From Tubiluchus corallicola (lineage: Eukaryota > Animalia > Priapulida), in the NCBI GenBank assembly GCA_030141605.1, contig JAQGDQ010000690.1, forward strand, positions 47,930 to 111,929: 64,000 nt of DNA, given 5' to 3'. Positions 7,750 through 61,349 of the stretch are shown one piece after another; the first letter of the stretch is position 1, and every line of letters begins with the position of its first letter. The notes beneath the pieces are model-generated. The model had not been told where the DNA came from. It saw only the letters and a list, made by a program, of their open reading frames with translations, and made no database searches. The position numbers were made by a program, and so were the translations under genes.

Positions 7750-7789
<40 letters not shown>

Positions 7790-13700: not shown

Positions 13701-16700
13701 TCTCCCTGTAGTTAAAATTAGTGAGGCTCTACTTTGGTAAATACTAGTGCTTTTACTGAAGAACCGAGTAACTCGTGTTTGCGTCAGTGGCGTCTCCCAG
13801 TAGTTAAAATTAGTGAGGCTCTACTTTGGTAAATACTAGTGCTTTTACTGAAGAACCGGGAGTAACTCGTGTTTGCGTCAGTGGCGTCTCCCAGTAGTTA
13901 AAATTAGTGAGGCTCTACTTTGGTAAATACTAGTGCTTTTACTGAAGAACCGGGAGTAACTCGTGTTTGCGTCAGTGGCGTCCCCCAGTAGTTAAAATTA
14001 GTGAGGCTCTACTTTGATAAATACTAGCGCTTTTACTGAAGAACCAGGAGTAACTCGTGTTTGCGTCAGTGGCGTCCCCCAGTAGTTAAAATTAGTGAGG
14101 CTCTACTTTGGTAAATACTAGTGCTTTTACTGAAGAACCAGGAGTAACTCGTGTTTGCGTCAGTGGCCTCCCCCTGTAGTTAAAATTAGTGAGGCTCTAC
14201 TTTGGTAAATACTAGCGCTTTTACTGAAGAACCGGGAGTAACTCGTGTTTGCATCAGTGGCGTCCCCCAGTAGTTAAAATTAGTGAGGCTCTACTTTGGT
14301 AAATACTAGTGCTTTTACTGAAGAACCAGGAGTAACTCGTGTTTGCATCAGTGGCGTCCCCCAGTAGTTAAAATTAGTGAGGCTCTACTTTGGTAAATAC
14401 TAGTGCTTTTACTGAAGAACCGGGAGTAACTCGTGTTTGCGTCAGTGGCGTCTCCCTGTAGTTAAAATTAGTGAGGCTCTACTTTGGTAAATACTAGTGC
14501 TTTTACTGAAGAACCAGGAGTAACTCGTGTTTGCATCAGTGGCGTCTCCCAGTAGTTAAAATTAGTGAGGCTCTACTTTGGTAAATACTAGTGCTTTTAC
14601 TGAAGAACCAGGAGTAACTCGTGTTTGCGTCAGTGGCGTCTCCCAGTAGTTAAAATTAGTGAGGCTCTACTTTGGTAAATACTAGTGCTTTTACTGAAGA
14701 ACCAGGAGTAACTCGTGTTTGCGTCAGTGGCGTCTCCCTGTAGTTAAAATTAGTGAGGCTCTACTTTGGTAAATACTAGTGCTTTTACTGAAGAACCAGG
14801 AGTAACTCGTGTTTGCGTCAGTGGCGTCTCCCTGTAGTTAAAATTAGTGAGGCTCTACTTTGGTAAATACTAGTGCTTTTACTGAAGAACCAGGAGTAAC
14901 TTGTGTTTGCGTCAGTGGCGTCTCCCTGTAGTTAAAATTAGTGAGGCTCTACTTTGGTAAATACTAGCACTTTTACTGAAGAACCAGGAGTAACTCGTGT
15001 TTGCGTCAGTGGCGTCTCCCTGTAGTTAAAATTAGTGAGGCTCTACTTTGGTAAATACTAGTGCTTTTACTGAAGAACCGGGAGTAACTCGTGTTTGCGT
15101 CAGTGTCGTCTCCCAGTAGTTAAAATTAGTGAGGCTCTACTTTGGTAAATACTAGTGCTTTTACTGAAGAACCAGGAGTAACTCGTGTTTGCGTCAGTGG
15201 CGTCTCCCAGTAGCTAAAATTAGTGAGGCTCTACTTTGATAAATACTAGTGCTTTTACTGAAGAACCAGGAGTAACTCGTGTTTGCATCAGTGGCGTCCC
15301 CCAGTAGTTAAAATTAGTGAGGCTCTGCTTTGATAAATACTAGTGCTTTTACTGAAGAACCAGGAGTAACTCGTGTTTGCATCAGTGGCGTCTCCCAGTA
15401 GTTAAAATTAGTGAGGCTCTGCTTTGATAAATACTAGTGCTTTTACTGAAGAACCGGGAGTAACTCGTGTTTGCGTCAGTGGCGTCTCCCAGTAGTTAAA
15501 ATTAGTGAGGCTCTACTTTGGTAAATACTAGTGCTTTTACTGAAGAACCGGGAGTAACTCGTGTTTGCGTCAGTGGCGTCTCCCTGTAGCTAAAATTAGT
15601 GAGGCTCTGCTTTGATAAATACTAGCACTTTTACTGAAGAACCAGGAGTAACTCGTGTTTGCGTCAGTGGCATCTCCCTGTAGTTAAAATTAGTGAGGCT
15701 CTACTTTGGTAAATACTAGTGCTTTTACTGAAGAACCGGGAGTAACTCGTGTTTGCGTCAGTGTCGTCCCCCTGTAGTTAAAATTAGTGAGGCGCTGCTT
15801 AAGAAAATTTTTGATAATTGTTTTAATATTGTGTAAAACAAAACAAACATATAAAAAGAAATTTTAGTCAAGAAGAAACACTGCCTTACACTTGCGCAAC
15901 ATTGCCGGACACTGCGCGAGTGACAGTGCTCTCTCTACCTTGCATGCAGCCTCTTGTCTCGGACATGTGCGCGTGGCCGCATGCGCGAGTGACAGTGCTC
16001 TCTCTACCTTGCATGCAGCCTCTTGTCTCGGACATGTGCGCGTGGCCGCATGCGCGCAACAACCTACCACCACATCGCTGGAACTGTGAAGTGCATACTT
16101 CCATACAAGGATTTCTGTAGTTTCATGAACTTGAGGATGGCTGCTGACACTATGCTTAACGTATAAATATTGAGAAAGGATTAAAGAAACGTATTCATTA
16201 TATTGAATGTTATCGATAATATCGAGTGACATTAGGGGGGCGCTTCAGCTCCATGTGAAAAGCAGTGAGAGCTTCGAAAGAAAACCGGGGCAAGTGATTA
16301 AATATATCAGCTTCCAGGAACAATGAGGTTAAAATGCAGTGAACGAAAGGGTGACATATTCAAACCAAAACTGCTACGCTAACATATTAGCACATGTGAT
16401 AAACGCACTGTACCGGCTTACAAACAAAGCTGTACCTAACACGACTGTTTCTACCTATATTATAGTGCAGAAATTTGACGTAAAAGGGAATGAAAAGCAG
16501 TAAAAGCTCTTTTGGTACATACAAGTCTCTTATTTTAAGCACGTGAAGCAAAAATATTGAGTCAATTATCCACACTTTTTTATACATTTGAATAGGAGCG
16601 GCCCATGCCAGATGTTTTTGAGTCAATTAAGCGACAGAGTCAATTAAGTGAGTCTAATGAACGGCGCCTATTATAGCTGCAATTAAAATGATGTGGCTGT

Positions 16701-19700
16701 TAATTCAACAATGCATTTTCCACGTTCTTTTTTGTTACAAGTCCCAAACGTTGTTTTCCAACCAACTGATTTCGGCTACACAAGCACCTTGCATCACCAG
16801 GTCATGCCAATGACCTTGAAGTTCTTAGCACTGGTTCGATCAGTTCTAGAAGCAGCCTGATATCCCTGGAATCTCGCTGGCATCGAACACCTCAGAGCTG
16901 TGAAGAGGCCATTGTCTCTAAAAGCTGTTAACACCTTCATTTCCGCACCACTCAGAACTTGTCTTATGTAAGACCTGTGATCTTTTTGCTACTGTATGAG
17001 CACAGACATCATTGAATGATTACAAATTAGGTACTGTTATGTACAGGAGAATCTCGGCTATGCAGTCATGCAATTTGTTTTAATATTTAATTAGATGAAG
17101 TTAAGCAAAGCATGCCCTCATCAGGCACTCCAGCCTGCTGAGTTGCTTAGTCTGGTGTACACTTGCATGAACTCACACACTATTTTATTGATTGCCTGCT
17201 TGGTACAGCCCAAGCTGTGCAGTATTCTGCTGCTATTCCAGGAAAAACCAACCAATCAGCCAAGGATAAATTAAGGTTGTTTCATCGTTTGACAGCAATT
17301 TCTCCTTAAAAATAGAGTAGACTTGAGACCAAAGTGTATCAGAGCACTGGGTCTGGATAGTTGAAATTTTTGCATTAGCCGATTTCACAGAAGTGCTACT
17401 GTACATTGTTACAGTGCAAACACTGCAGTTATTGGAAACTTTTTTCCATTCTATCATCAAAAGTCGGTTTTTAATTTGTCTAAGATAAACAAATGCATTT
17501 CTTGCACAATTTTACATGAAAATCAAGTGGGTGGGGAGCAGAAACTTACAAAAAATGATCAAATGGAACGTAATCGTTGCTTAGCGAGAGTGGTTTTTCA
17601 TGAAGCCATGCAAAATGCAGCAGGCAAAGGAGTTAAACACAAAGCTCCATTATGATTCACTGATTCGTCGGCGTATCCAGTTTACCATTCCAGTTCATTT
17701 GTAGCCGGATTGTCATCAATTATCTTACTAGTTTATAAAAAAACTTTCTGATCTAAACCCACTCCACAAGATTAATCGCATACCTCGTTAACGTGGTGTA
17801 ATTATCCTCTTTATTTCGTTTCTACACAAAACATTAATACAGTACAATTCACTTAATAGATCCACAGATAATAGATCCAGCCACTTATTGTGGCCACTAT
17901 TGCTGGTGAAGAAATAACCACATCAACCAGCATAAAACATTAATATAGTAGAATTCGCTTAATAGATCCACAGATAATAGATCCAGCCACTTATTGTGGC
18001 CACTATTGCTGGTGAAGCAATAACCACATCAACCAGCATAAAACATTAGTACAGTACAATTCACTTAATAGATCCACAGATAATAGATCCAGCCACTTAT
18101 TGTGGCCACTATTGCTGGTGAAGAAATAACCACATGAACCAACATAAAACATTAATACAGTACAGTTCACTTAATAAATCCACAGATAATAGATCCAGCC
18201 ACTTATTGTGGCCGCTATTGCTGGTGAAGAAATAACCACATCAACCAGCATAAAACATTAATATAGTAGAATTCGCTTAATAGATCCACACATAATAGAT
18301 CCAACCGCTTGTTGTGGCCACTATTGCTAAAACCGAACTGTTTAATACTTTAACCTTGTACAAACCGCTGTTTATTAAATCCAAGTTTTTCATCCGAAAT
18401 CCAAATTATTCAGTAAATAAGTAGCATGTTTATTTCAAATATTGTAAATTACAAGAAACTAGTGAAAGCTTAATCCATATGAACAGAAAGAACTGTACAA
18501 ATCAACATAAAACAATAATTTAGTAGAATCCACTTTTCTTTTACATTGTGATGTCAATATTCTGTGATGTTTTAGTAAAATCTGCAACAGAAGAGAATAT
18601 CTTTGCATTATGAATTTGCAAGGGGAGGCATTTTCTATCAGTGAATGTTTATCCACCTTGATCTTAACCCTTGCTTGATCTTCCTTGATCTCTGTTGTTA
18701 GGAACACGTGGCAACCACATGACAATTGTATTTATATTGTTACTTTTCCATGTTAGAAAAGAGCAGTAACCGCACGCTACAGATCATTCCATTTGTATTT
18801 AACAACACATTCAGCAATCTTGATCCCAGTGTTGAAATTGCTGATGTGTCCCATCAACAGAAAGGGATCATCTTCTTCATTTCGTTTCTAAACTCCTTCA
18901 TTTTTGCTACGTACACAAACACATTAGCCAGTGAATTGCAGTATGCTGGTAGAAGAAACCAGTAATAGTTGTTTGCATTAACCATCTTTGTTTCACCGTG
19001 AACACACAACGTAAAAATGGCGACCACAGTTGGTGTGTAGCACACGAAAAACAACGCTACTATGGTGGCGACAGTCTTCACAGGTTTAAGTTTTGCTTGC
19101 AGTGATGTCGCTCTAGTCACAGTGGTGTCAGATGCCACATGTGTGGAATTTTCTATTTCCCGGACTTGCTTCAATGCAGTTTTCAAGATAGTGATGTAGG
19201 CATAGAAAAATGAAATTAATATCGCTGGAAATACAGTCACCGAGCAGTAAAACACGTACTTTGCATATAATCCATGAGGATTTGGTACACACTTGTATAA
19301 AATATTCCTGTCAATGATGTACAAAATTGACAAAACACCGATTGTGACAGTTTGATAAATCCATGCAAAAATGAGAATGTTTCTTATACGGCGATCGGAC
19401 AGCCAAACGTGATAGCGAAGTGGATACACAATACTAATGTATCGTTCAGCTGTAGCCAGGTAGTAACACGTGGCTGAATTACTCACACCTGCGTGTGGTA
19501 TGACATACAGAAACACGCACATTGTCAGATTTTTCTTCTTCGGATCAACAACACTGAAGATAATCGTTTGTAAAGTGAGACAGATTCCTGAGAACAGATC
19601 AGCTACTGACAAGTTACCCAGTGCATAATACAATGGCTTGTGTAAGCTTGGTGCCCTGGCAATCACTATGATAACGATGCTATTAGCTATAATGATGGCA

Positions 19701-22700
19701 ATGCCTAAAATCAATGACAAAATGTTCACACCGAGTTCAAACTTAGTACGAACTGCATCACTGGTGAAGCTAAAAGTTGCGTTCAGTTCAGGCATTCTGT
19801 CTGCCATCTCTTCACGTTATTGTAGCAAATTATGAGGGAGCTCTACAATGATTCAACTGCATTAATTCATAATTTTGTCTATAAACTTGGTTGTGTGCCT
19901 AGCTAATGTTGCTCGCAGACTGTCTGGGACAAAGGGGATGTCAAAAGTGCATCATCCATTCAACAATGAGTGTTTGTTTTCTAGTGCTGTTATGTTTTCA
20001 TGACGCTTTGTAATTTATTTCTGTGTGTATTTAGCTTAATGCATGCACAAACAGTAGTACATAAATAAGTGGCGTTTTTATTTGCATATCAATATTGTTG
20101 CACGCAGTACAATTGTTCAATATTAAATCGGTAAATAAAACACACAATGTGAAAAAGGACAAGAGGATGAAATGCGGTATAATTTAAGTTATGGGCATGT
20201 TAATTTTTACGTTTTTTTGTTTAGGGGGTGTGCAGTTATTTAAAACATGAAGTATTTCTGTATTAGTACTTTTGCATATTACTTATAAAATAAATTAAGT
20301 GTTAATTACTATTTTTGAATGTGTGTTATTAAATTGTTCTTGCCGTGACAAAGTGTTGCCTGCTTTCAATCTAGGAATTTCATATTTAGTTCGTTATTTT
20401 CATCACAATTTTTCTGCATTACACATGTTTTGATTTTAGTAAGTTTACTTGTAAGGTTTGTGGGAAAAAATATCACGAATTCCTGTTTACTATTGATAAT
20501 TTCAGTGGGTTATAATTAAATTTTGCAGTAGATGTTGTGTATGTGTTCATCTAAGTCTTATTTTGCAAAATGGACACTGAAGTGACCTTGATGGTCTGTA
20601 GTGTCATTTGCACGTTGTGTTTTGTCTTGATGTTGTAAAACTTCTGAGATATTGTGAACACAAATTATAAACAAAATAATAGGAATCCAAATAATATTCT
20701 ATTTTATGCTAATTGTTGGAGGAGTTGGAGTAATGTAGAGTAGTTCACAACTTGTGTAAAAGTTCTAACAACTAATGTAGGTAGAAGTTAAATCGTGTCG
20801 TGCATACTCATGTTGGTTTCCCATGGCTGATGAATTGGTTTCTCTGATGAACTCATCTTTGGCATTTTGGACATGAAATTTGTGCATGTTTTAAAAAATG
20901 AGCAGAGGTGTCGACATGCTGATCTATGTCATCATCTACACTTCCCTGAATGTGAATTCGCCCAATCCACCGTGACGTTGACCTTTGATTGGCATAGCTT
21001 GACCTTAGCCGCTAAGCCTGCAGCAGTCCACTTGGCTACTATATTGATATCGTTGATTATGAGAAACCAAGTGCTATAAATCAGTCAATTTGTTTAACAT
21101 TTAAATGTTACTAATCTTTTTCTCAGTGATAAGATAAAGTATGCATTTTATTTATAGAAAGGAATCATCTTCTTCATTTCATTTCTAAACTCCTCCATTT
21201 TTGCTACGTACACGAACACATTAGCCAGTGAATTGCAGTGTACTGGTTGAAGAAACCAGTAATAGTTGTTTGCATTAACCATCTTTGTTTCACCGTGAAC
21301 ATACAACATGAAAATCGCGACCATAATTGGTGTGTAGCACACAGAAAACAACGCTACTATGATGGCGACAGTCTTCACAGGTTTAAGTTTTGCTTGCAGT
21401 GATGTCACTCTAGTCACAGTGCTGTCAGATGCCACATGTATGGAATTGTCTATTTCCCGGACTTGCTTCAATGCTGTTTTTAAGATAGTGGTGTAGGCGT
21501 AGAAAAATGAAATTAATATCACTGGAAATACAGTCACCGAGCAGTAAAACCCGAACTTTGCATATAATCCATGAGGGTGTGGCACACACTTGTATAGAAT
21601 GTTCCTGTCAATGACGTACAAAATTAACAAAGTACCGAATGTGACAGTTTGATTAATCCATACAAAAATGAGAATGTTTCTTATACGGCGATCGGACAGC
21701 CAAACGTGATAGCGAAGTGGATACACGATACTAATGTATCGTTCAGCTGTAGCCAGGAAGTAACACATGGCTGAATTTCCCACACAAGCATTTGGTATGA
21801 CACACAGAAACACGCACATTGTCAAGTTTTTCTTCTTCGGATCAACAACACTAAAGGCAATCGTTTGTAAAGTGAGACAGATTCCTGAGAACAGATCAGC
21901 TACTGACAAGTTACCCAGTGCATAATACAATGGTTTGTGTAAGCTTGGTGCCCTGGCAATCACTATGATAACGATGCTATTAGCTATAATGATGGCAATG
22001 CCTAAAATCAATGAAAAAATGTTCACACCAAGTTCAAAATTAGTACGAACTACATCATTGGTGAAGCTAAAAGTTGCGTTCAGTTCAGATATTCTGTCTG
22101 CCATCTCTTCATGTTATTCCAGCAAACTGTGTGAAGCCATGCGCAATATTCACTTGTATTTTGAGGCTAAACATGGAAGTTTACCTAGCTAATGGTGGTT
22201 ACAGCATGTCTGTGACAAAAGAGATGCCAAATGCATGAACTAATTAGCAATGGCAGTTCTTTTCTTGTGATGTTAAAATGTTTTCATGCCAATAAGCACT
22301 GAATTACTTGTTGTGTGTATTTAGCTTAATGCATGCACAATAGCAAATTATGAGGGAGCTCTACAATGATTCAACTGCATTAATTCATAATTTTATCTAT
22401 AAACTTGGTTGTGTGCCTAGCTAATGTTGCTCGCAGACTGTCTGGGACAAAGGGGATGTCAAAAGTGCATCATCCATTCAACAATGAGTGTTTGTTTTCT
22501 AGTGCTGTTATGTTTTCATGACGCTTTGTAATTTATTTCTGTGTGTATTTAGCTTAATGCGCAAACAGTAGTACATAAATAAGTGACATTTTTGTTTGCA
22601 TATGAATATTGTTACACACAGTAAAACTGTTTGACATTAAATCGGTAAGGATTTAAATGTAACAAACACTTAGACTAATTTAAGTTGTGAGCATGCTAAT

Positions 22701-25700
22701 TTTTACTGGGGCGTGCACTCATGTAAAACATGAAGTGTTTCTGTATTAATACTTTTGCATATTACTTGTAAAATGAATGAAGTGCTAATTACTATTTTTG
22801 AATGGGTGTTATTAAATTGTTCTTCCCGTGACAAAGTGTTCTCTACTTTCAATATAGGAATTTCATACTTAGTTCATTATTTTCATCACAATTTTACTGT
22901 ATTATGCATGTTTTGTTATTAGTAAGTTTATTAGTTAGGTTTGTGGGAGAAAATATCACGAATTCATAATTAAATTTTGCATTAGATGTTGTGTAAGTGT
23001 TCATCTCAGTCTTATTTTGCAAAATGGGCTTTGAAGTGACCCTGATGGTCTGTAGTGTCATCTGCACTTTTTTTGTCTTGATGTTGTAAAACTTCTAAGA
23101 TATTATGAACACAATTTATAAACAAAATAATAGGAACCAAAGTAATATTCTATTTTATGCTAATTGTTGGAGGAATGGTAGAAGTTGAGTCGTAGTAGTA
23201 CTTAGGTAGAAGTTGAGTCGTGTCGTGCATACTCATGTTAGTTTCCTGTTGCTGATGAATTGGTTTCTCTGATGAACTCATCTTTGGCATTTGGGACATG
23301 AAATTTGTGCGTGTTTTGAAAAATGAGCTGTGGTGTCGACATGTAGACCTATGTCATCATCTACACTTCCCAGAATGTGAAATCGTCCAATCCACTGTGA
23401 CCTTGGTCTTTGATTGGCATCGCTTGACCTTAGCAGCTAAGCCTGCAGCAATCCACTTGGCTACTATATTGATATCGTTGATTATTAGAAACCAAGTGCT
23501 ATAAATCAAATTTGTTTAACATGTCAGTGTTATTAATCTTTTTCTCAGTGATAAGATAAAGCATGCATTTTATTTATAGAAAGGAATCAACTTCTTCATT
23601 TCATTTCTAAACTCCTCCATTTTTGCTACGTACACGAACACATTAGCCAGTGAATTGCAGCATGCTGGTAGAATATACCAGTAATAGTTGTTTGCGTTAA
23701 CCATCTTTGTTTCACCGTGAACATACAACGTAACAATCTGAATCATAATTGGTGTGTAGCACACGAAAAACAATCCTACTATGGTGGCGACAGTCTTCAC
23801 GGGTTTAAGTTTTGCTTGCAGTGATGTCGCTCTAGTCACAGTGCTGTCGGCTGCCACATGTGTGGAATTTTCTATTTCCCGGACTTGCTTCAACGCAGTT
23901 TTTAAGATAGTGATGTAGGCGTAGAAAAATGAAAATAATATCACTGGAAATACAGTCACCAAGCTGTAAAACCCGCACTTTGCATATAATCCACGAGGGT
24001 GTGGTACACACGTGTATAAAATTTTCCTGTCAATGATGTACAAAATTAACAAAGCACTGATTGTGACAGTTTGATAAATCCATGCAAAAATGAGAATGTT
24101 TCTTACATGGCGATTGGACAGCCAAACGTGATAGCGAAGTGGATACACGATACTAATGTATCGTTCAGCTGTAGCCAGGAAGTAACACATGGCTGAATTA
24201 CTCACACAAGCGTATGGTATGACATACAGAAACACACACATTGTCAGGTTTTTCTTCTTCGGATCAACAACACTGAAGATAATCGTTTGTAAAGTGACAC
24301 AGATTCCTGATAACAGATCAGCTACTGACAAGTTACACAGTGCATAATACAATGGTTTGTGTAAGCTTGGTGCCCTGGCTATCACTATGATAACAATGCT
24401 ATTAGCTATAATGATGGCAATACCTAAAGTCAAGGAAAAAATGTTCACACCGAGTTCGATATTAGTATGAACTACATCATTGGTGAAGCTAAAAGTTACA
24501 TTCAGTTCAGGTATTCTGTCTGCAATCTCTTCACGTTATTCTAGCAAATTATAAGGGAGCTCTACATAATCGTTCTCGCAGACTGGCTGGGACAAAGGGG
24601 ATGTCAAAAGTGCATCATCCATTCAACAATGAGTGTTTATTTTCTAGTGCTGTTATGTTTTCATGACGCTTTGTAATTTATTTCTGTGTGTATTTAGCTT
24701 AATGCATGCACAAACAGTAGTACATAAACAACTGACATTTTTGTTTGCATATGAATTTTGTAACACGCAATAAAACTGTTTGATATTAAATCGGTAATGA
24801 TTTAAATGAAACAAACACTTAGACTAATTTAAGTTATGGACATGTTATTTTTTACTTAAATATTTTTTTGTTTAGGGGGTGTGCAGTCATGTAAAACATG
24901 AAGTATTTCTGTATCAGTACTTTTGCATATTACTTATAAAATAAATTAAGTGCTAATTACTATTTTTGAATGTGTGTTATTAAATTGTTCTTGCCGTGAC
25001 AAAGTGTTGCCTGCTTTCAATCTAGGAATTTCGTACTTAGCTCATTATTTTCGTCACAATTTTTCTGAATTACACATGTTTTGTTAGTACTAAGTTTATT
25101 AGTAAGGTTTGTGGGAGAAATTCTTGTTTACTATTGTTAATTTCAGGGGGTTATGATTAAATGTTGCATTAGATGTTGTGTATGTGTTGATCTCAGTCTT
25201 ATTTTGCAAAATGGACATTGCACAGAGCCTAATAGTCTGTAGTGTCATCTGCGCGTTGTGTTTTTTGTCTTGATGTTGTAAAACTTCTGAGATATTGTGA
25301 ACACAATTTATAAACAAAATAATAGGTATCCAAGTAATATTCTATTTTACGCTAATTGTTGGAGTAATTGGAGTAATGTAGAGTAGTTCACAACTTGTGT
25401 AAAAGTGATAGCAACTAATGTAGGTAGAAGTTAAGTCGTGTCGTGCATACTCATGTTGGTTTCCCCCGGCTGATGAATTTGTTTCTCTGATGAAATCGTC
25501 TTTGGCATTTTGGACATGAAATTTGTGCATGTTTTAAAAAATGAGCTGTGGTGTCGACATGTAGATCTATGTCATCATCTACACTTCCCAGAATGTGAAA
25601 TCGTCCCATCCACGGTGACCTTGACCTTTGATTGGGATCTCTTGACCTTAGCCGCTAAGCCTGCAGCAATCCACTTGGCTACTATATTGATATCGTTGAT

Positions 25701-28700
25701 TATTAGAAACCAAGTGCTATAAATCAATCAATTTGTTCAACATCTCAATGTTATTAATCTTTTCTTCAGTGAAAAGATAAAGCATGCATTTTAGTTATAG
25801 AAAGGCATCATCTTCTTCATTTCATTTCTAAACTCCTCCATTTTTGCTACGTACACAAACACGTTAGCCAGTGAATTGCAGTGTACTGGTAGAAGAAACC
25901 AGTAATAGTTGTTTGCATTAACCATCTTTGTTTCACCGTGAACACACAACATAAAAATCGCGACCATAGTTGGTGTGTAGCACACGAAAAACAACGCTAC
26001 TATGGTGGCGACAGTCTTCACAGGTTTAAGTTTTGCTTGCAGTGATGCCTGTCTAGTCACAGTGCTGTCGGCTGCCACATGTGTCGAATTTTCTATTTCC
26101 CGGACTTGCTTCAATGCAGTTTTTAAGATAGTGATGTAGGCGTGGAAAAATGAAATTAATATCGCTGGAAATACAGTCACCGAGCAGTAAAACACGTACT
26201 TTGAATATAATCCATGAGGATTTGGTACACACTTGTATAAAATATTCCTGTCAACGATGTACAAAATTAACAAAGCACTGAATGTGGCAGTTTGATAAAT
26301 CCATGCAAAAATGAGAATGTTTCTTACACGGCGATCGGACAGCCACACATGATAGCGAAGTGGATATACAATACTAATGTATCGTTCAGCTGTAGCCAGG
26401 CAGTAACACGTGGCTGAATTACTCACACACATGTTTGGTATGACATACAGAAACACACACATTGCCAGGTTTTTCTTCTTCGGATCAACAACACTAAAGG
26501 CAATCGTTTGTAAGGTGAGACAAATTCCTGAGAACAGATCAGCTACTGACAGGTTACCCAGCGCATAATACATTGGTTTGTGTAAGCTTGGTGCCCTGGC
26601 AATCACTATGATAACGATGCTATTAGCTATAATGATGGCAATGCCTAAAATCAATGAAAAAATGTTCACACCGAGTTCAAACTTAGTACGAACTGCATCA
26701 TTGGTGAAGCTAAAAGTTGCATTCAGTTCAGGTATTCTGTCTGCCATCTCTTCACGTTATTCTAGCAAATTATGAGGGAGCTCTGCAATGATTCATCTGC
26801 ATTAATTCATAATTTTGTCTATAAACTTGGTTGTGTGCCTAGCTAATGTTGCTCGCAGACTGTCTGGGACAAAGGGGATGTCAAAAGTGCATCATCCATT
26901 CAGCAATGATTGTTTGTTTTCTAGTGCTGTTATGTTTTCATGACGCTTTGTAATTTATTTCTGTGTATTTAGCTTAATGCATGCACAAACAGTAGTACAT
27001 AAAGAAGTGAAATTTTTGTTTGCATATGTATATTGTTACTCGCAGTAGAACTGTTTGACGTTAAATTGGTAATGATTTAAATGAAACAAACACTTAGACT
27101 AATTTAAGTTGTGGGCATGTTAATTTTTACGTAATTATTTTTCTTTTGTTTAGGGTGTGTGCAGTCTTGTAAAATATGAAGTGTTTCTCTGTTAGTACTT
27201 TTGCATACTGCTTGTAACATAAATGAAGTGCTAATTACTATTTTTGAATGGGTGTTATTAAATTGTTCCTCCCGTGACAAAGTGTTGCCTACTTTCAATC
27301 TAGGAATTTCATACTTAGTTCATTATTTTCGTCACAATTTTTCTCTATTACACATGTTTTGTTTTTAGTAAGTTTAGTAGTTCAAAATTAGTACGAACTA
27401 CGTCACTGTTGCAGTTAAACGTTGCATTCATTTCTGCAAATCTGTCTACCATCTCTTCGTGTTATTCTAGTAAACTGTGTGAAGCCATGCGCGATATTCA
27501 CTTGTATTTTGAGGTTTAACGTGTATGTTTACTTAGCTAATGGTGGTTACAGGATGGCTGTGACAAAAGAGATGCCTAATGCATGATCTAATTAGTAATG
27601 ACTGTTCTTTTCTTGTGATGTTAAAATGTTTTCATGATGCTTTGTAATTTATTTCTTGATAATCAGCACTGAATTATTTGCTGTGTGTATTTAGCTTAAT
27701 GCACAAATAGTAGTACATAAATAAGTGACATTTTTGTTTGCGTATGAATATTGTAACACGCAGTAGAACTGTTTAGCATTAAATCGGTAAGGATTTAAAT
27801 GAAATAAACACTTAGACTAATTTAAGTTGTGGGCATGCTAATTTTTACGGCGGTGTGCAGTCATGTAAAACATGAAGTATTTCTGTATTAATACTTTTGC
27901 ATATTACTTGTAAAGTAAATGAAGTGCTAATTACTATTTTTGAAAGGGTGTTATTAAATTGTTCTTCCCATGACAAAGTGTTCTCTACTTTCAATCTAGG
28001 AATTTCATACTTAGTTCATTATTTTCATCACAATTTTACTGTATTACGCATGTTTTGATTTTAGTAAGTTTATTAGTTAGGTTTGTGGGAGAAAATATTA
28101 CGAATTCCTGTTTGCTATTGTTAATTTCAGTGGGTGATAATTAAATTTTGCATTAGATGTTGTGTAAGTGTTCATCTCAGTCTTATTTTGCAAAATGGGT
28201 TTTGAAGTGAGCCTAATAGTCTGTAGTGTCATCTGTACTTTTTTGTCTTGATGTTGTAAAACTTCTGAGATATTGCAAACGCAACTTATAAACAAAGTAA
28301 TGCAACCAAGGTAAAAATTCCATTTTATTCTAATTGTTGGAGTAATTGGAGTAATGTAGAGTATTTCACAACTTGTATAAAAGTTATAACGACTAATGTA
28401 GGTAGAAGTTGAGTCAAGTCCTGCATACTCATGTTGGTTTCCCATGGCTGGAATTGGTTTCTCTGATGAAATCGTCTTTGGCAATTGGGACATGAAATTT
28501 GTGCTTGTTTTGAAATATGAGCTGTGGTGTCGACATGTAGACCTATGTCATCATCTACACTTCCCAGAATGTGAAACCGTCCAATCCACCATGACCTTGA
28601 CCTTTGATTGGCATCGCTTGACCTTTGCCACTAAGCCTGCAGCAGTCCACTTGGCTACTATATTGTTATCGTTGATTATGAGAAACCAAGTGCTATAAAT

Positions 28701-31700
28701 CAGTCAATTTGTTTAACATGTCAATGTTATTAATCTTTTTCTCAGTGATAAGATAAAGTATGCATTTTATTTATAGAAAGGGATCATCTTCTTCATTTCA
28801 TTTCTAAACTCCTCCATTTTTGCTACGTACACGAACACATTAGCCAGTGAATTGCAGTGTACTGGTAGAAGAAACCAGTAATAGTTGTTTGCATTAACCA
28901 TCTTTGTTTCACCGTGAACACACAACATAAAAATCGCGACCATAGTTGGTGTGTAGCACACGAAAAACAACGCTACTATGGTGGCGACAGTCTTCACAGG
29001 TTTAAGTTTTGCTTGCAGTGATGTCACTCTAGTCACAGTGCTGTCAGATGCCGCATGTATGGAATTGTCTATTTCCCGGACTTGCTTCAATGCTGTTTTT
29101 AAGATAGTGGTGTAGGCGTAGAAAAATGAAATTAATATCACTGGAAATACAGTCACCGAGCAGTAAAACCCGAACTTTGCATATAATCCATGAGGGTGTG
29201 GCACACACTTGTATAGAATGTTCCTGTCAATGACGTACAAAATTAACAAAGTACCGAATGTGACAGTTTGATTAATCCATACAAAAATGAGAATGTTTCT
29301 TATACGGCGATCGGACAGCCAAACGTGATAGCGAAGTGGATACACGATACTAATGTATCGTTCAGCGGTAGCCAGGAAGTAACACATGGCTGAATTACTC
29401 ACACAAGCATTTGGTATGACATACAGAAACACACACATTGCCAGGTTTTTCTTCTTCGGATCAACAACACTAAAGGCAATCGTTTGTAAAGTGAGACAAA
29501 TTCCTGAGAACAGATCAGCTACTGACAGGTTACCCAGCGCATAATACATTGGTTTGTGTAAGCTTGGTGCCCTGGCAATCACTATGATAACGATGCTATT
29601 AGCTATAATGATGGCAATGCCTAAAATCAATGAAAAAATGTTCACACCGAGTTCAAAATTAGTACGAACTACATCACTGGTGAAGCTAAAAGTTGCGTTC
29701 AGTTCAGATATTCTGTCTGCCATCTCTTCATGTTATTGTAGCAAATTATGAGGGAGCTCTACAATGATTCAACTGCATTAATTCATAATTTTGTCTATAA
29801 ACTTGGTTGTGTGCCTAGCTAATGTTGCTCGCAGACTGTCTGGGACAAAGGGGATGTCAAATGTGCATCATCCATTCAGCAATGATTGTTTGTTTTCTAG
29901 TACTGTTATAAAGACGCTTTGTAATTTATTTCTGTGTGTATTTAGCTTAATGCATGCACAAACAGTAGTACATAAAGAAGTGAAATTTTTGTTTGCATAT
30001 GTATATTGTTACTCGCAGTAGAACTGTTTGACGTTAAATTGGTAATGATTTAAATGAAACAAACACTTAGACTAATTTAAGTTGTGGGCATGTTAATTTT
30101 TACGTAATTATTTTTCTTTTGTTTAAGGTGTGTGCAGTCTTGTAAAATATGAAGTGTTTCTCTTTTAGTACTTTTGCATACTGCTTGTAACATAAATGAA
30201 GTGCTAATTACTATTTTTGAATGGGTGTTATTAAATTGTTCCTCCCGTGACAAAGTGTTGCCTACTTTCAATCTAGGAATTTCATACTTAGTTCATTATT
30301 TTCGTCACAATTTTTCTCTATTACACATGTTTTGTTTTTAGTAAGTTTAGTAGTTCGAAATTAGTACGAACTACGTCACTGTTGCAGTTAAACGTTGCAT
30401 TCATTTCTGCAAATCTGTCTACCATCTCTTCGTGTTATTCTAGTAAACTGTGTGAAGCCATGCGCGATATTCACTTGTATTTTGAGGTTTAACGTGTATG
30501 TTTACTTAGCTAATGGTGGTTACAGGATGGCTGTGACAAAAGAGATGCCTAATGCATGATCTAATTAGTAATGACTGTTCTTTTCTTGTGATGTTAAAAT
30601 GTTTTCATGATGCTTTGTAATTTATTTCTTGATAATCAGCACTGAATTATTTGCTGTGTGTATTTAGCTTAATGCACAAATAGTAATACATAAATAAGTG
30701 ACATTTTTGTTTGCGTATGAATATTGTAACACGCAGTAGAACTGTTTAGCATTAAATCGGTAAGGATTTAAATGAAATAAACACTTAGACTAATTTAAGT
30801 TGTGGGCATGCTAATTTTTACGGCGGTGTGCAGTCATGTAAAACATGAAGTATTTCTGTATTAATACTTTTGCATATTACTTGTAAAGTAAATGAAGTGC
30901 TAATTACTATTTTTGAAAGGGTGTTATTAAATTGTTCTTCCCGTGACAAAGTGTTCTCTACTTTCAATCTAGGAATTTCATACTTAGTTCATATTTTCAT
31001 CACAATTTTACTGTATTACGCATGTTTTGATTTTAGTAAGTTTATTAGTTAGGTTTGTGGGAGAAAATATTACGAATTCCTGTTTGCTATTGTTAATTTC
31101 AGTGGGTGATAATTAAATTTTGCATTAGATGTTGTGTAAGTGTTCATCTAAGTCTTATTTTGCAAAATGGGTTTTGAAGTGAGCCTAATAGTCTGTAGTG
31201 TCATCTGTACTTTTTTGTCTTGATGTTGTAAAACTTCTGAGATATTGCAAACGCAACTTATAAACAAAATAATGCAACCAAGGTAAAAATTCCATTTTAT
31301 TCTAATTGTTGGAGTAATGTAGAGTATTTCACAACTTGTATAAAAGTTATAACGACTAATGTAGGTAGAAGTTGAGTCAAGTCCTGCATACTCATGTTGG
31401 TTTCCCATGGCTGGAATTGGTTTCTCTGATGAAATCGTCTTTGGCAATTGGGACATGAAATTTGTGCTTGTTTTGAAATATGAGCTGTGGTGTCGACATG
31501 TAGACCTATGTCATCATCTACACTTCCCAGAATGTGAAACCGTCCAATCCACCATGACCTTGACCTTTGATTGGCATCGCTTGACCTTTGCCACTAAGCC
31601 TGCAGCAGTCCACTTGGCTACTATATTGATATCGTTGATTATTAGAAACCAAGTGCTATAAATCAGTCCATTTGTTTAACATGTCAATGTTATTAATGTT

Positions 31701-34700
31701 TTTCTCAGTGATAAGATAAAGTATGCATTTTATTTATAGAAAGGAATCATCTTCTTTATTTCATTTCTAAACTCCTCCATTTTTGCTACGTACACGAACA
31801 CATTAGCCAGTGAATTGCAGTATGCTGGTAGAATATACCAGTGATCATTGTTTGCATTAACCATCTTTGTTTCACCGTGAACATACAACGTAACAACCTG
31901 GACCATAATTGGTGTGTAGCACACAAAAAACAATGCTACTATGGTGGCGACAGTCTTCACAGGTTTAAGTTTTGCTTGCAGTGATGTCACTCTAGTCACA
32001 GTGCTGTCAGCTGCCATATGTGTTGAATTTTCTATTTCCCGGACTTGCTTCAATGCAGTTTTTAAGATAGTGATGTAGGCGTAGAAAAATGAAATTAATA
32101 TCACTGGAAATACAGTCACCAAGCTGTAAAACCCGCACTTTGCATATAATCCATGAGGGTGTGGTACACACTTGTATAAAATATTCCCGTCAACGATGTA
32201 CAAAATTAGCAAAACACTGAATATGACAGTTTGATAAATCCATGCAAAAATGAGAATGTTTCTGATACGGCGATCGGACAGCCAAACGTGATAGCGAAGT
32301 GGATATATGATACTAATGTATCGTTCAGCTGTAGCCAGGCAGTAACACGTAGCTGAATTACCCACACAAGCATTTGGTATGACATACAGAAACACGCACA
32401 TTGTCAGGTTTTTCTTCTTCCGATCAACAACACTGAAGATAATCGTTTGTAAAGTGAGACAAATTCCTGAGAACAGATCAGCTACTGACAAGTTACCCAG
32501 TGCATAATACAATGGTTTGTGTAAGCTTGGTGCCCTGGCAATCACTATGATAACAATGCTATTAGCTATAATGATGGCAATGCCTAAAGTCAAGGAGAAA
32601 ATGTTTACACTGAGTTCGCTGGTGAAGCTAGTCGTTGCATTCATTTCAGCCAATCCGTCTGCCATCTTTTCACATTATTCTAGCTAACTGTGAGTGAGCT
32701 CTGCAGAGATTTATTGGCATTAATAGGCTAAACACGGTTGTTTGCCCAGCTAATGTTGTTTACCAGAGATGCCAAATGCATGATCTAATTAGCAATGACA
32801 GTTTCTTTTCTTGTGATGTTAAAACGTTTTCATGATACTTTGTAATTTATTTCTTGATAATCAGCACTGAATAATTTGCTGTGTGTATTTAGCTTAATGC
32901 ATGCACAAATAGTACATAAATAAGTGACATTTTTGTTTGCATATGAGTATTGTAACACGCAGTAAAACTGTTTGACATTAAATCGGTAAGGATTTAAATG
33001 AAACAAACACTTAGACTAATTTAAGTTGTGGGCATGTTAATTTTTACGGGGGTGTGCAGTCATGTAAAACATGAAGTATTTCTGTATTAGTACTTTTGCA
33101 TATTACTTGTAAAATGAATGAAGTGCTAATTACTGTTTTTGAATGGGTTTTATTAAATTGTTCTTCCCATGACAAAGTGTTCTCTACTTTCAATATAGGA
33201 ATTTCATACTTAGTTCATTATTTTCATCACAATTTTACTGTATTACACATGTTTTGATTTTAGTAAGTTTATAGTTGTAAGGTTTGTGGGAGAAAATATC
33301 ACGAATTCATAATTAAATTTTGCATTAGATGTTGTGTAAGTGTTCATCTCAGTCTTATTTTGCAAAATGGGCTTTGAAGTGAGCCTAATAGTCTGTAGTG
33401 TCATCTGTACTTTTTAGTCTTGATGTTGTAAAACTTCTAAGATATTATGAACACAATTTATAAACAAAATAATAGGAACCAAAGTAATATTCTGTTTTAT
33501 GCTAATTGTTGGAGGAGTTGGAGTAAGATGGAGTAATGTAGAGTAGTTCACAACTGTAAAAGTTATAACAACTAGTGTAGGTAGAAGTTGAGTCGTGTCG
33601 TGCATACTCATGTTGGTTTCCCATTGCTGATGAATTGGTTTCTCTGATGAACTCGTCTTTGGCATGTTTTGAAAAATGAGCTGTGGTGTCGACATGTAGA
33701 CCTATGTCATCATCTACACTTCCCAGAATGTGAATTCGCCCAATCCACTGTGACGTTGACCTTTGATTTGCATAGCTTGACCTTTGCCGCTAAGCCTGCA
33801 GCAGTCCACTTGGCTACTATATTGATATCATTGATTATTAGAAACCAAGTGCTATAAATCAGTCAATTTGTTTAACATGTCAATGTTATTAATCTTTTTC
33901 TCAGTGATAAGATAAAGTATGCATTTTATTTATAGAAAAGGATCATCTTCTTCATTTCATTTCTAAACTCCTCCATTTTTGCTACATACACGAACACATT
34001 AGCCAGTGAATTGCAGTGTACTGGTAGAAGATACCAGTAATAGTTTTTTGCATTAACCATTTTTGTTTCACCGTGAACAAACAACATAAAAATCGTGACC
34101 GTAACTGGTGTGTAGCACACGAAAAACAACGCTACTATGGTGGCGACAGTCTTCACAGGTAAGTTTTGCTTGCAGTGATGTCGCTCTAGTCACAGTGCTA
34201 TCGGCTGCCACATGTGTGGAATTTTCTATTTCCCGGACTTGCTTCAATGCAGTTTTTAAGATAGTGATGTAGGCGTAGAAAAATGAAATTAATATCACTG
34301 GAAATACAGTCACCCAGCAGTAAAACACGAACTTTGCATATAATCCATGAGGATTTGGTACACACTTGTATAAAATATTCCTGTCAAAGATGTACAAAAT
34401 TAACAAAGAACCAAATACGACAGTTTGATAAATCCATACAAAAATGAGAATGTTTCTTACACGGCGATCGGACAGCCAAACGTGATAGCGAAGTGGATAT
34501 ATGATACTAATGTATCGTTCAGCTGTAGCCAGGTAGTAACACGTAGCTGAATTACTCACACAAGCATTTGGTATGACATACAGAAACACGCACATTGTCA
34601 GATTTTTCTTCTTCGGATCAACAACACTGAAGGCAATCGTTTGAAAAGTGAGACAAATTCCTGAGACCAAATCAGCTACTGACAAGTTACCCAGTGCATA

Positions 34701-37700
34701 ATACAATGGTTTGTGTAAGCTTGGTGCCCTGGCAATCACTATGATAACAATGCTATTAGCTATAATGATGGCAATGCCTAAAATCAAAGAAAAAATGTTC
34801 ACACCGAGTTCAATATTAGTATGAACTACATCATTGGTGAAGCTAAAAGTTGCGTTCAGTTCAGGTATTCTGTCTGCCATCTCTTCACGTTATTCTAGCA
34901 AATTATGAGGGAGCTCTGCAATGATTCAACTGCATTAATTCATAATTTTGTCTATAAACTTGGTTGTGTGCCTAGCTAATGTTGCTTGCAAGCTGTCAGG
35001 GACAAAAGGGGTGTCAAGAGTGCATCATCCATTCAACAATGAATGTTTGTTTTCTAGTGCTGTTATAATGACGCTTTGTAATTTATTTCTGTGTGTATTT
35101 AGCTTAATGCATGCACAAACAGTAGTACATAAATGAGTGACATTTTTGATTGCATATGAATATTGTAACACACAGTAGCACACACACTGTGAAAGCCAAG
35201 TGTATCAAATGTCATATAATTTACGTTTTGTATAATCTTGAAAAAACAGGTACACATGAGGTAAAACAAGTTAAGTTTAATCAGCCATTCCTCTGTCTTT
35301 TGAAAAATGCAAAGATTAATTTACAAACTTGATGCAATTTTTACCTCTCTCTTACTTTGTGACGTAAATTTTAGTAAAATCTGCAACACAAGAGCATGTT
35401 TTTGCATTATGAACTTGCAAGGAAGGCATTTTCTATCAGTGAACGTTTATCCACCCTGATCTTAACCCTTGCTTGATCTTCCTTGATCTCGGTTGTTAGG
35501 AACACGTGGCAACCACTTGACAATTGTATTTATATTGTTACTTTTCCATGTTAGAAAAGAGCAGTAACCGCACGCTACAGATCATTCCATTTCTTTTTAA
35601 CTACGCATTCATCAATCTTGATCCCAATGTTTCAACAAACAAGAAAATGAACTAGGTACGATACAATAGCATGCGTTGAGAGGCGTTGTCAAGTGAACAC
35701 AAATGCATTGTCTGGTACACTTAACCTTTGACCTTTTCACGATCATCATCAATTGCTGGAAGTGAGAAAAGGCTTATTGTCCGTACATCCGTTACATCTG
35801 CAAAAATTAGGGAATTTTTTTCCCTAACTATACCGCGTAATAGTATATTAATGTAGTTCTCTTACATTTATTGTAATTATATTTGGAATGTTTTTCCTTC
35901 ACTATACCGCGTAATAGTATATTAATGTAGTTCTGTTACAATTATTGTAATTATATTTGGAATGTTTTTCCCTAACTATACCGCGTAACAGTATATTAAT
36001 GTAGTTCTCTTACAATTATTGTAATTATATTTATATTTCCTAGATATAATACATAATACTTATAAGACGATAACGCAATTTGCATTGTAAAATTTTATGC
36101 CGAAACTGATAGTAAATGACTAATTACTAAATTTCCATTAATGCAATTTTCGGTTTATTTACAGAGCGAAGCTTATGCGGAAGGATTATGTTGGGTATTG
36201 CAATATTACTATCAAGGTTGTCCGAGCTGGAAATGGTATTTTCCGTATCACTACGCGCCGTTTGCGTCTGACTTCGAGAACTTGGGTGACCTGAATATAA
36301 CCTTCGAGAAGGACACGCAACCGGTAAGTGTGTCATTGCCAGCCATTTGTGTGCTTGTACAACCCACCAGGACCACCCACAAGTCGGCACAGTAACTCTT
36401 TTCACAGTTGATGTGCAGCTGCCGTAGGTCAAATGTTAAGTGTGCCACAACAACGCATCTTAGCTACTACCATCCGTGACATGTGGGTAAAGCAAAGTAT
36501 CAGTTCTGTAACTTCAGTTGTTTCACGTGGACTTAACTTAATTATACGTTAGTCTGTTCTACCAACAACTAAGCGACACCATCTCCCAAGTTCCAGCAAG
36601 GGACCGCCTTCTACTCTTGGGAGACTTTAATGCTAGAGTGGGCAAAGACAATCTCCTCTGGGAAAACATTATTGGAAAATAGGGCATTGGTAACTGTAAT
36701 GCAAATGGACTCCTCCTCCTTGGCCTTTGTGCTGAGCATGAGCTTTTCATCACTAATACCCAATTTCGGCTCCCTAACCGTTTCAAAACAACATGGAGAC
36801 ACCCTCGGTCTAAATTATGGCATACCCTTGACTACGTCATTGTCAAACAACAGCATAAGAAGGATGTTTTGGTTACTAGGAGCTTGCCCGGTGCTGATGA
36901 CTGTTGGACAGACCACCGTCTTCTGATCAGCAAAATAAGAATGAGTCTGCATCGAAAACCAAGAACTCGCATCAACAACCAGGCTAGAAGAAGATATGAC
37001 ACCAGTAAACTAACAAGCCCAACCACGTCTCAAAACTATAGAGATGCGCTCAATCAAAAGATAACTGCAAACCAAGTTAATACCTCACTAGACTCAGAAT
37101 GGACTAATCTACGCACGGCTATGGAAGAGGCAGCCCAAGGCACAATTGGACTCCAAGAAAGGAAGCATCAAGACTGGTTTGACTCCCATGACCAAGAAAT
37201 CGCTGCTCTCATTGATGCCAAGCGAAAAGCCAGGATAGACCATGAGCAGCATCCCATGTCATTCGAGAAGAAAGTCAGGTTCCAACAACTGAAAAGCCAA
37301 TGTCAGTCCAGAATGAGGGAGCTCCAAAACAACTGGTGGCAACAGAAGGCAGAAGAACTTCAACATCATGCAGATTGCAGAGACCTTAGAAGTTTCTACG
37401 TAGGCACCAAGGAGAGCTATGGTCCTAGAAGAACATCAGTGGGAACTCTTATGTCAGCCGACAACACCACCCTCCTGACCGAGAGCCAAGATATTCTGGA
37501 ACGATGGAAACAGCACTTTAATACCTTGCTAAACCGGAACTCAACGACAGCAGCTGACTTCCTAAGGAATGTTCCACAGCATCCCCTGCAACCCCAGTTA
37601 TCGGTTCCACCCAACTTTATTGAGTTTGAAACAGCCATTAAGCGTATGCCTCGAGGGAAGGCTGCTGGACCCGACAATATCCAAGTGGAACTCATCAGTC

Positions 37701-55333: not shown

Positions 55334-55774
55334 GTAAGTCGCATGCTTTTTCGACACGTGTTGTACAATAATAACATAATATGTGAGTTTAGTGTGCTGT
55401 GTGAGTATCGAACCAACGTAGTTGACTCTACATCTGTCACTAGGGGAGGGCATTTTGATCGCCATGTAAACCTTACATTGATGCTAATGATTTGTCATAG
55501 TAATCAGAAAGCTTTGTTTCATCTTGGACGGTTTTAATTGCTTTCGTGTTCGATGTTTCCTGTGTTTGTTGGCGCTTTGTTCAATATAGCATCATCTCTG
55601 GTTTCCAGTTCGTGTTTTATTTGTTCGAAGGTTTGAGTGCACTTCTAAGAATCATATGCGGTTCTGTAAGGATTAGTTTTCCTGTACGAACTCGTCGTTC
55701 AATTTGCCTTTTCAAAATTTCGTCGTGCGCGCACAGTTGCTTTAGGTTAAGGTTAAGTGTACGACAACAGTGTG

Positions 55775-57480: not shown

Positions 57481-57714
57481 CCTTGAGATCTGCATTTTCA
57501 TGCTTCATTTTCATGATCTTGCTAATTGTTGTTTGGATGCCTTACATGTTTGTTTTAAACATAATATTCTAAAGTATTCTATGATATTCCATAATATTCT
57601 TATCTTATCTTATCTTATCTTATCTTAAAGAAAATTAGAATTTTATAAATATTATACTAGGCATTATGTCTAGGTACATTATACAAAACAGTAGCACATA
57701 AGACCTAGTATTAT

Positions 57715-57748
<34 letters not shown>

Positions 57749-61312: not shown

Positions 61313-61349
<37 letters not shown>

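What the first reader, a model, noticed from the sequence alone, without database searches (positions are those of the whole stretch)
18854..34880. Expanding GPCR gene cluster nested antisense inside one intron of the essential gene XRN2
Seen: the exons ending 10903 (KFKQSV) and starting 36165 ([10 protein letters not shown]) are directly consecutive in the XRN2 protein. All 7 GPCR copies and 2 stubs (head-to-tail, 2.2-3.0 kb period, minus strand) therefore lie in a single 25,261-bp intron. Established: tandem arrays of intronless, roughly 310-320 aa class A GPCRs with birth-and-death turnover are typical of chemoreceptor families, and XRN2 is the broadly expressed Pol II 'torpedo' terminator. 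Inference: a lineage-specific receptor family is radiating inside a constitutively transcribed antisense host, which could impose transcriptional interference or provide open chromatin. I do not know of a description of this arrangement.
Basis: partly seen in the sequence, partly recalled or inferred. Interest (0 to 1): 0.85.

Follow-up and report, generated by a model that had tools for sequence, protein, structure and literature searches.

The report
Receptor gene array inside XRN2 intron
An invertebrate's RNA-degrading gene XRN2 holds, backwards inside one 25-kb intron, a row of seven recently duplicated receptor genes (five intact) that likely sense outside chemicals; the layout is real but combines two well-known patterns, genes nested in introns and expanding receptor families.

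Summary
Twelve XRN2 exons (+ strand) join by GT-AG into one open frame, and the 10903/36165 intron is 25,261 bp. One spliced contig from a related animal crosses this junction. The intron holds seven minus-strand class A GPCR copies: five intact, one with ATT for ATG, one frameshifted. It also holds two ~75-bp 5' stubs and a 4.3-kb satellite. The copies are 91.5-97.7% identical and mosaic. Their cytoplasmic half is under purifying selection (dN/dS 0.35), while the outer TM3-7 half is near neutral (0.90). A 264-bp direct repeat flanks the array. Contigs from two DNA runs hold unit junctions that the window lacks, so further units likely exist. No GPCR expression data were found, and no contig links the array to the exons independently of the assembly. 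The arrangement has precedent: GPR34 and GPR82 lie antisense in one CASK intron (PMC3247265), and this scan noted a similar orphan-GPCR array in a ClC-2 intron of Owenia. Verdict: a new example of known kinds; any regulatory effect of the host is untested.

The parts
10819..10903 (+). XRN2 exon upstream of the long intron (phase 0 donor, GT at 10904)
   Evidence: X6 spliced contig
10904..36164 (+). 25,261-bp XRN2 intron that hosts the array
   Evidence: junction crossed by one X6 contig
36165..36323 (+). XRN2 exon downstream of the long intron
   Evidence: X6 contig and a 508-bp X2 DNA contig with 1 difference
1729..9721 (+). Six upstream XRN2 exons: 1729-1868 (zinc knuckle), 3448-3573, 4153-4290, 5792-5899, 7848-8108, 9615-9721; the first ~240 codons were not mapped in the window
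40643..55333 (+). Downstream XRN2 exons: 40643-40732, 41504-41576, 42146-42229, 43165-43269, 44898-44977; approximate later ones near 47851, 49501, 51255, 55194
   Evidence: later exons weak tblastn hits, boundaries not all settled
11501..15800 (.). 94-bp satellite, about 46 copies, 96% matches, in the same intron
18570..18833 (.). Repeat X, the 3' flank of copy G1 (AATAAA 420 and 478 nt past its stop); left arm of the direct repeat around the array
18854..19807 (-). GPCR G1, intact, 317 aa
21148..22104 (-). GPCR G2, intact, 318 aa; shares a 313-bp exact tract with G5
23570..24526 (-). GPCR G3, open frame but ATG changed to ATT (next Met at codon 96); likely pseudogene or non-ATG start
25791..26747 (-). 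GPCR G4, intact, 318 aa; AlphaFold model has 7 TM helices plus helix 8, pLDDT 85.6
27379..27452 (-). Stub S1: upstream region plus about the first 25 codons of a copy
28767..29723 (-). GPCR G5, intact, 318 aa; mosaic of G4-like and G2-like blocks
30352..30425 (-). Stub S2, 99% identical to S1
31730..32665 (-). GPCR G6, intact, 311 aa (21-bp in-frame deletion in the N-terminus)
33927..34880 (-). GPCR G7, pseudogene: 2-bp deletion at CDS position 720 removes TM6-TM7
35181..35368 (.). Segment R, single copy in the window, joining the upstream region of G7 to X'
   Evidence: variant copies in X2 and X4 contigs
35369..35631 (.). Repeat X', 93.6% identical to X, same orientation; followed about 30 bp later by a high-copy dispersed repeat (35662-35779)

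Best explanation
Seven closely related class A GPCR genes, five of them intact, lie head to tail on the antisense strand of one XRN2 intron; they are likely a young family of chemical-sensing orphan receptors that grows and shrinks by unequal crossing-over and gene conversion, likely as a tolerated passenger with no special tie to XRN2. Shown: nesting, splicing of the host across the site (in a relative), 7TM fold, recent duplication (spacer divergence 0.9-10%), mosaic copies, decayed copies, a conserved cytoplasmic face and a variable outer face. Inferred: each intact copy has its own promoter in the upstream segment that all nine units share; the receptors couple to one G protein and differ in ligand; antisense orientation and intronless coding sequences keep them out of the way of XRN2 splicing; a block of one or more units, bounded by the X/X' repeat, was copied in from or trimmed from a larger array with the repeat order X-gene-upstream-R.
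For: Host and junction. Class A fold and motifs (N1.50, D2.50, ERY, W4.50, P5.50, P6.50, C3.25 plus an ECL2 Cys). The six open copies form one clade (support 1.0) whose nearest database proteins are 30% and 28% identical (75 of the 150 HMMER hits used). Pooled dN/dS is 0.54 (codon bootstrap 0.38-0.79); inner half 0.35 (0.20-0.60); outer TM3-7 0.90 (0.54-1.74). Variable residues number 47 of 133 outer against 27 of 160 inner sites, Fisher p=0.0004. Recombination: 694 of 1485 site pairs are four-gamete incompatible, and neighbouring sites are more compatible than in any of 10,000 permutations. Further units: an X4 contig joins R-X' to a GPCR 3' end, a junction absent from the window; two X2 contigs carry upstream-R junctions that differ from the window's single one. 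X5 holds several GPCR contigs at about 84-91% identity. Precedent for the family type: PMC11886862 (abstract and passages). Precedent for nesting: PMC5174743 and PMC3247265 (passages).
Against: No expression evidence for any copy and no ligand. The N/S contrast between halves is only borderline (Fisher p=0.068). The pocket test (13 of 29 against 37 of 143, p=0.046) used a recalled list of positions chosen after I had seen the variable sites. No region has dN/dS significantly above 1, so relaxed constraint fits as well as diversifying selection. The copies are not independent, so all p-values are approximate. 'Passenger' is a default assumption and was not tested. The link between array and exons has no support beyond the assembly.
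Confidence: 0.68

Rival explanations
1. The receptors bind an internal ligand (lipid, nucleoside or peptide, as in the melanocortin/cannabinoid/adenosine group), and the copies are dosage or near-neutral duplicates, not a chemosensory repertoire.
For: The best solved-structure sequence matches are MC4R, CB1 and GPR6 (E about 1e-14). Named HMMER hits include 'adenosine receptor A3-like' and '5-HT4-like' proteins. Sixteen of 29 pocket positions are invariant in the six open copies.
Against: Identity to solved receptors is only 16-21% in the fold search, and the nearest folds are spread over adrenergic, adenosine and opioid receptors. D3.32 of amine receptors is Pro. No clear orthologue among 1.84 billion representatives (best 30%). 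Endogenous-ligand receptors tend to be conserved orthogroups, not expansions (PMC11886862 abstract).
Confidence: 0.15
2. Host and array are functionally coupled: XRN2 transcription running antisense through the array silences or gates the receptor promoters, or keeps them in open chromatin, and this favoured the site.
For: Interference between nested and host genes is inferred genome-wide in Drosophila (PMC5174743, passages) and shown at mouse H13/Mcts2 (PMC13309782, abstract). AATAAA is rarer on the host strand of the whole intron than in shuffles (7 against 18.5).
Against: The AATAAA deficit is not significant once repeats are counted once (3 against 6.0, p=0.145; spacers 6 against 8.0). Contigs point to further units that need not be in XRN2. 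Deleting GPR82 did not change CASK mRNA (PMC3247265). No expression data for this locus.
Confidence: 0.07
3. The placement or copy number is an assembly artefact: the array belongs elsewhere, is collapsed, or G4/G5 are two haplotypes written in tandem.
For: No contig spans the laid stretches. The array is bounded by a satellite and by dispersed repeats. The two stub-bearing spacers differ by only 0.9%. In X4, R-X' runs on into another GPCR instead of the dispersed repeat. X2 depth over the CDS is about 30 times that of the exon contig (the tool warns this is no copy number).
Against: No N in the window. The longest exact repeat in the array is 328 bp. Misplacement would need two misjoins that leave the XRN2 exons colinear. 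X2 contigs match unique flanks at 0-3 differences per 400-750 bp. Tandem junctions between units are present in X2 contigs (joints 35178 back to 32970).
Confidence: 0.1

Closest known systems
GPR34 and GPR82 in an intron of vertebrate CASK (PMC3247265, passages)
   Same: Related class A orphan GPCRs lying antisense in one intron of a host gene whose loss is lethal in mice.
   Different: Two old, stable paralogues (position kept for 450 million years) of the P2Y12-like group; here seven young copies with stubs, pseudogenes and gene conversion, from an unrelated class A branch.
Lineage-specific class A GPCR expansions of invertebrates (Nath et al. 2025, PMC11886862; abstract and passages)
   Same: Tandem, species-specific clade with full-length, truncated and pseudogene members, no one-to-one orthologues and variable ligand-facing positions.
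   Different: That survey covers Lophotrochozoa, and its main text never uses 'nested' (0 hits; supplements not read). The phylum of this animal is not established, and positive selection is not shown here.
Nested genes in general (Assis 2016, PMC5174743, passages)
   Same: Short young duplicates in the longest intron of a broadly expressed host, on the opposite strand (71% of Drosophila cases); several internal genes per host occur.
   Different: Here the internal genes multiplied in place by DNA-level tandem duplication and make up about 16 of the 25 kb; the host is XRN2, for which I found no report.
Human P2RY12/13/14-GPR87-GPR171 cluster within MED12L (nesting recalled; searches show only that the genes share one locus)
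   Same: Cluster of paralogous class A GPCRs overlapping a transcription-machinery gene.
   Different: Ancient, diverged paralogues; orientation and intron positions not checked here.
Melanocortin, cannabinoid, GPR3/6/12 and S1P receptors
   Same: Best sequence matches among solved structures (E about 1e-14).
   Different: The window's receptors keep C3.25, an ECL2 Cys and P5.50, which those receptors lack (recalled), and have Val at 7.50 and Tyr at 6.48; orthology not shown.

Membership tests
XRN2/Rat1 (host) | Closer to XRN2/Rat1 than to XRN1 | tested here: met
   Exon 36165-36323 scores E 3e-22 to 4e-17 on XRN2/Rat1 chains and 1e-14 to 6e-13 on XRN1 chains; up to 63.6% identity to XRN2 homologues over about 490 aa
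XRN2/Rat1 (host) | One intact gene spliced across 10903/36165 | tested here: met
   Open frame over 12 exons; one spliced contig of a relative
XRN2/Rat1 (host) | Essential and broadly expressed in this animal | not testable with these tools
   Rests on general knowledge of XRN2; one RNA-like run shows it is transcribed in a relative
Class A (rhodopsin-like) GPCR | Pfam 7tm_1 above cut-off and a 7TM fold | tested here: met
   92.7-101.4 bits in the six open copies, 74 in G7, cut-off 30.5; model pLDDT 85.6, TM-score up to 0.78 to beta1-adrenoceptor
Class A (rhodopsin-like) GPCR | Microswitch residues N1.50, D2.50, E/DRY, W4.50, P5.50, P6.50, NPxxY | tested here: met
   All present except P7.50, which is Val; N7.49 and Y7.53 kept (numbering assigned by me)
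Nested (intronic) genes | Whole coding sequence inside one intron of another gene | tested here: met
   physical link rests on the assembly
Nested (intronic) genes | Internal genes are transcribed | tested here: inconclusive
   No RNA run on record holds the stretch; purifying selection on the inner half is indirect support
Lineage-specific chemoreceptor-type GPCR expansion | Species-specific clade, tandem, no one-to-one orthologues, with pseudogenes | tested here: met
Lineage-specific chemoreceptor-type GPCR expansion | Positive selection in the ligand pocket | tested here: inconclusive
   Outer TM3-7 dN/dS 0.90 (0.54-1.74), pocket 1.04 (0.37-7.98); more variable than the inner half but not above 1
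Lineage-specific chemoreceptor-type GPCR expansion | Expression in sensory cells; environmental ligand | not testable with these tools
   No tissue RNA and no assay
Chordate-type odorant receptors | OR motifs at TM3-ICL2 (Met ... Cys-x-Pro-Leu-x-Tyr) and TM6 (Lys-Ala-x-x-Thr ... His); motifs recalled | tested here: not met
   The Met, Cys, Ala and His are absent in the alignment; 7tm_4 scores are 27.2-36.6 at cut-off 27, far below 7tm_1
Biogenic amine receptors / TAARs | Asp at 3.32 (recalled) | tested here: not met
   Pro in all six open copies
Melanocortin/cannabinoid/S1P group | Orthology, and loss of the TM3-ECL2 disulfide and of P5.50 (recalled) | tested here: not met
   C97, C173 and P194 are present; no tree with named members was built

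The most novel reading that the evidence does not exclude
A copy-number-variable chemoreceptor array was seeded in the XRN2 intron as a repeat-bounded block and now uses the host's constant antisense transcription as a default silencer, so that only a receptor promoter strong enough to beat it fires in a given sensory cell. The gene for the transcription terminator would then be co-opted to gate receptor choice. Nested and non-nested paralogues in one genome would make this directly testable.
Probability: 0.06. Interest if true: 0.72.

Novelty: new member of a known kind. Interest (0 to 1): 0.3.

Why it matters
As it stands it is a clean, transcript-supported example of a young orphan-receptor family multiplying inside a housekeeping gene's intron in a poorly sampled invertebrate lineage. 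It adds a new receptor clade (30% identity to anything in the databases searched) as a chemoreceptor candidate. If paralogues outside XRN2 are confirmed, the locus is a natural experiment on whether nesting changes receptor expression or burdens the host. Without that, it changes no general picture.

Tried and rejected
No whole genome is held, so other loci of the family could not be searched. Word-based homologue searches found nothing for the GPCR or for the variable XRN2 exon 7848-8108; this reflects the sensitivity of those searches. No RNA holder was listed for the GPCR stretch, and X6 has no contig on the GPCR copy; neither is evidence on expression. X5 and X4 have no cover over exon 36165, so nesting could not be tested in them. 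Taxon: a 485-column XRN2 tree with 52 of the 120 homologues leaves the window on a long branch, outside the sampled arthropod clade and without a supported sister; no priapulid was among the named rows, so the priapulid label in other notes of this scan is untested. A splice acceptor 14 nt before the start codon (5' UTR intron) was considered, but the AG is missing in 3 of 7 copies. Host-strand poly(A)-signal depletion was rejected after removing redundancy. Summed contig depth in X2 (spacer 14.6x, CDS 30x, X 13.7x, R 3.2x the exon contig) hints at extra copies, but the tool says it is no copy number, so it is only a lead. The Atlas search gave generic 7tm_1 clusters from several phyla. The script stopped on an error after printing the results used. 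Literature searches: no hit for nested genes + chemoreceptor + intron + antisense + cluster, for the GPR183/UBAC2/LPAR6 set or for a six-term nested-GPCR-cluster query. Searches gave one paper each and three, none on this arrangement by title or abstract start; one search listed 17 papers, of which I opened one (PMC6549253, not on GPCRs). The library lacks most subscription papers.
Full report
The host gene. tblastn with six full-length XRN2 homologues places exons in order along the + strand from 1729 to beyond 49,500, with no XRN2-like exon between 10903 and 36165. Twelve exons with AG/GT ends give one open frame of about 492 residues, up to 63.6% identical to XRN2 homologues (the donor of the twelfth exon was corrected to 43269). 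The exon at 36165 scores better on XRN2/Rat1 structures than on XRN1. The intron after 10903 is phase 0 and 25,261 bp long; the other introns checked are 569-4,319 bp. The distance between the conserved motifs on either side of the junction is 27 residues in 36 of the 39 homologues that carry both (of 120 fetched), and 27 in the window.

Transcript support. One search listed six runs, none on record as RNA. In run X6 (RNA is the tool's guess), a 404-nt contig lays positions 17-103 on 10817-10903 and positions 103-262 on 36164-36323. Its loose ends match the opposite exon, and a further loose end matches the exon ending at 9721. It is therefore spliced at two junctions. It differs from the window at 13 of 87 and 21 of 160 letters, and 11 of the 12 listed differences in the second exon are at third codon positions, so it comes from a close relative. 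It does not show that the relative has the array.

The array. Seven minus-strand copies pass Pfam 7tm_1. Stop-to-stop spacing is 2.2-3.0 kb. G1, G2, G4, G5 and G6 are intact. G3 starts with ATT and its next Met is codon 96. G7 has a 2-bp deletion at CDS position 720. Two stubs keep the upstream region and about 25 codons and are 99% identical to each other. A 94-bp satellite of about 46 copies fills 11501-15800 of the same intron. A 264-bp direct repeat, X at 18570-18833 and X' at 35369-35631 (93.6%), brackets the array.

What the receptors are. AlphaFold on a 60-sequence alignment gives seven TM helices plus helix 8 (pLDDT 85.6). Foldseek returns class A receptors at 16-21% identity, with no single family standing out. 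By sequence the best solved matches are MC4R, CB1 and GPR6 (E about 1e-14). HMMER over 1.84 billion representatives finds two clearly closer proteins, both unnamed Logan records. They are 30% and 28% identical and form the sister group (support 0.98) in a tree of 75 of the 150 hits. The receptors keep the class A switches except P7.50 (Val), keep the TM3-ECL2 cysteines, and lack the amine-binding Asp3.32 and the chordate OR motifs (motif definitions recalled). They are orphan class A receptors of a lineage-specific clade.

How the array evolves. CDS identity between copies is 91.5-97.7%. Spacers differ by 5.7-9.9%, except the two stub-bearing spacers at 0.9%. Nearest neighbours switch along the gene: G5 is G4-like at 151-300 and 751-900 and G2-like at 301-750, with a 313-bp exact tract shared with G2. 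694 of 1485 informative site pairs are incompatible, and neighbouring sites are more compatible than in all 10,000 permutations. This is the signature of unequal crossing-over and gene conversion. Over the six open frames dN/dS is 0.54 (bootstrap 0.38-0.79): 0.35 (0.20-0.60) on the cytoplasmic half and 0.90 (0.54-1.74) on the outer half of TM3-7. Variable residues are enriched outside (47 of 133 against 27 of 160, p=0.0004), though the N/S contrast is borderline (p=0.068). The pocket test (p=0.046) used a recalled list picked after viewing the data. Reading: conserved G-protein face, loosened or diversifying ligand face. Positive selection is not shown.

More units than the window shows. In X4, from another study, a 406-nt contig runs from R through X' and then into a GPCR 3' end by way of the short linker seen after X on the left, a junction the window lacks. 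In X2, which matches the window's unique flanks at 0-3 differences per 400-750 bp, two contigs cover the upstream-R junction but differ from the window's only copy (12 differences and 10 gaps; 18 differences and 1 gap), at depths 136-139 against 154 for the exon contig. X5 holds several GPCR contigs at about 84-91% identity. So units of the order X-gene-upstream-R likely exist in tandem somewhere, at another locus or in a longer form of this array. The X/X' bracket fits a block copied or trimmed from such an array (inference). No contig spans the laid stretches, so the link between array and exons rests on the assembly. Against an artefact: no N, a longest exact repeat of 328 bp, and two misjoins would be needed.

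Host-guest coupling. I found no evidence for it. AATAAA is scarce on the host strand of the whole intron (7 against 18.5 expected) but not once repeats are counted once (3 against 6.0, p=0.145). There are no expression data for the receptors.

Comparison with what is known. GPR34 and GPR82 lie antisense in one intron of CASK, CASK-null mice die at birth, and GPR82 deletion left CASK mRNA unchanged (PMC3247265, passages). Nearly 10% of Drosophila genes are in nested structures, 71% on opposite strands, typically young duplicates in long introns of broadly expressed hosts (PMC5174743, passages). Interference is shown at mouse H13/Mcts2 (PMC13309782, abstract). Tandem lineage-specific class A expansions with pseudogenes and variable pockets are widespread in Lophotrochozoa (PMC11886862, abstract and passages; supplements not read, and they may show nested clusters). 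An unchecked note of this scan describes the same layout in a ClC-2 intron of Owenia. My searches found no paper on nested genes in XRN2 or on a young chemoreceptor-type array nested in a housekeeping gene, in a library that lacks most subscription papers. The phylum is not established: my XRN2 tree is unresolved, and other notes on this genome suggest a priapulid (untested).

Verdict. Observation confirmed with a corrected count (five intact of seven). Interpretation partly supported. New member of known kinds; interest 0.3. The bold reading, host transcription gating receptor choice, is not excluded (about 6%).

Noticed in passing
window 36558-39400 (+), in the next XRN2 intron: A LINE of about 2.8 kb with RT domain (Pfam RVT_1, E 1.7e-28) and a C-terminal C2H2 finger, in three frames, in sense orientation. 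About 12 bp are duplicated at its two ends (near 36546 and 39390), which looks like a target-site duplication. RTE-type label is recalled.
   Followed up: partly
window 11501-15800: A homogeneous 94-bp satellite (about 46 copies, 96% matches) in the same intron as the GPCR array; the intron has grown by two independent tandem expansions.
   Followed up: no
window 40782-41331: About 550 bp of degenerate telomere-like CCCTAA repeats making up most of a 771-bp XRN2 intron.
   Followed up: no
window 1927-2648, 16928-17622, 45226-45933: Three copies (78-81% identical) of a ~700-bp dispersed repeat in three different XRN2 introns, same orientation.
   Followed up: no
runs X5 and X6: Both carry the same species label as the best-matching run, yet X6 is only about 85-93% identical in XRN2 exons and X5 about 84-91% in the GPCRs; this may be a cryptic species or a broad label.
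   Followed up: partly
window 4300-4909, 7451-7795, 17828-18328, 42258-42853, 47983-48336, 53145-53561: Most XRN2 introns carry their own minisatellite (periods 16, 3-9, 106, 40, 17-108 and 137 bp).
   Followed up: no
window 55334-64000: The 3' end of XRN2 was not mapped beyond the candidate exon 55194-55333; no other protein-coding gene was recognised, and GC falls to about 27% after 60,000.
   Followed up: no
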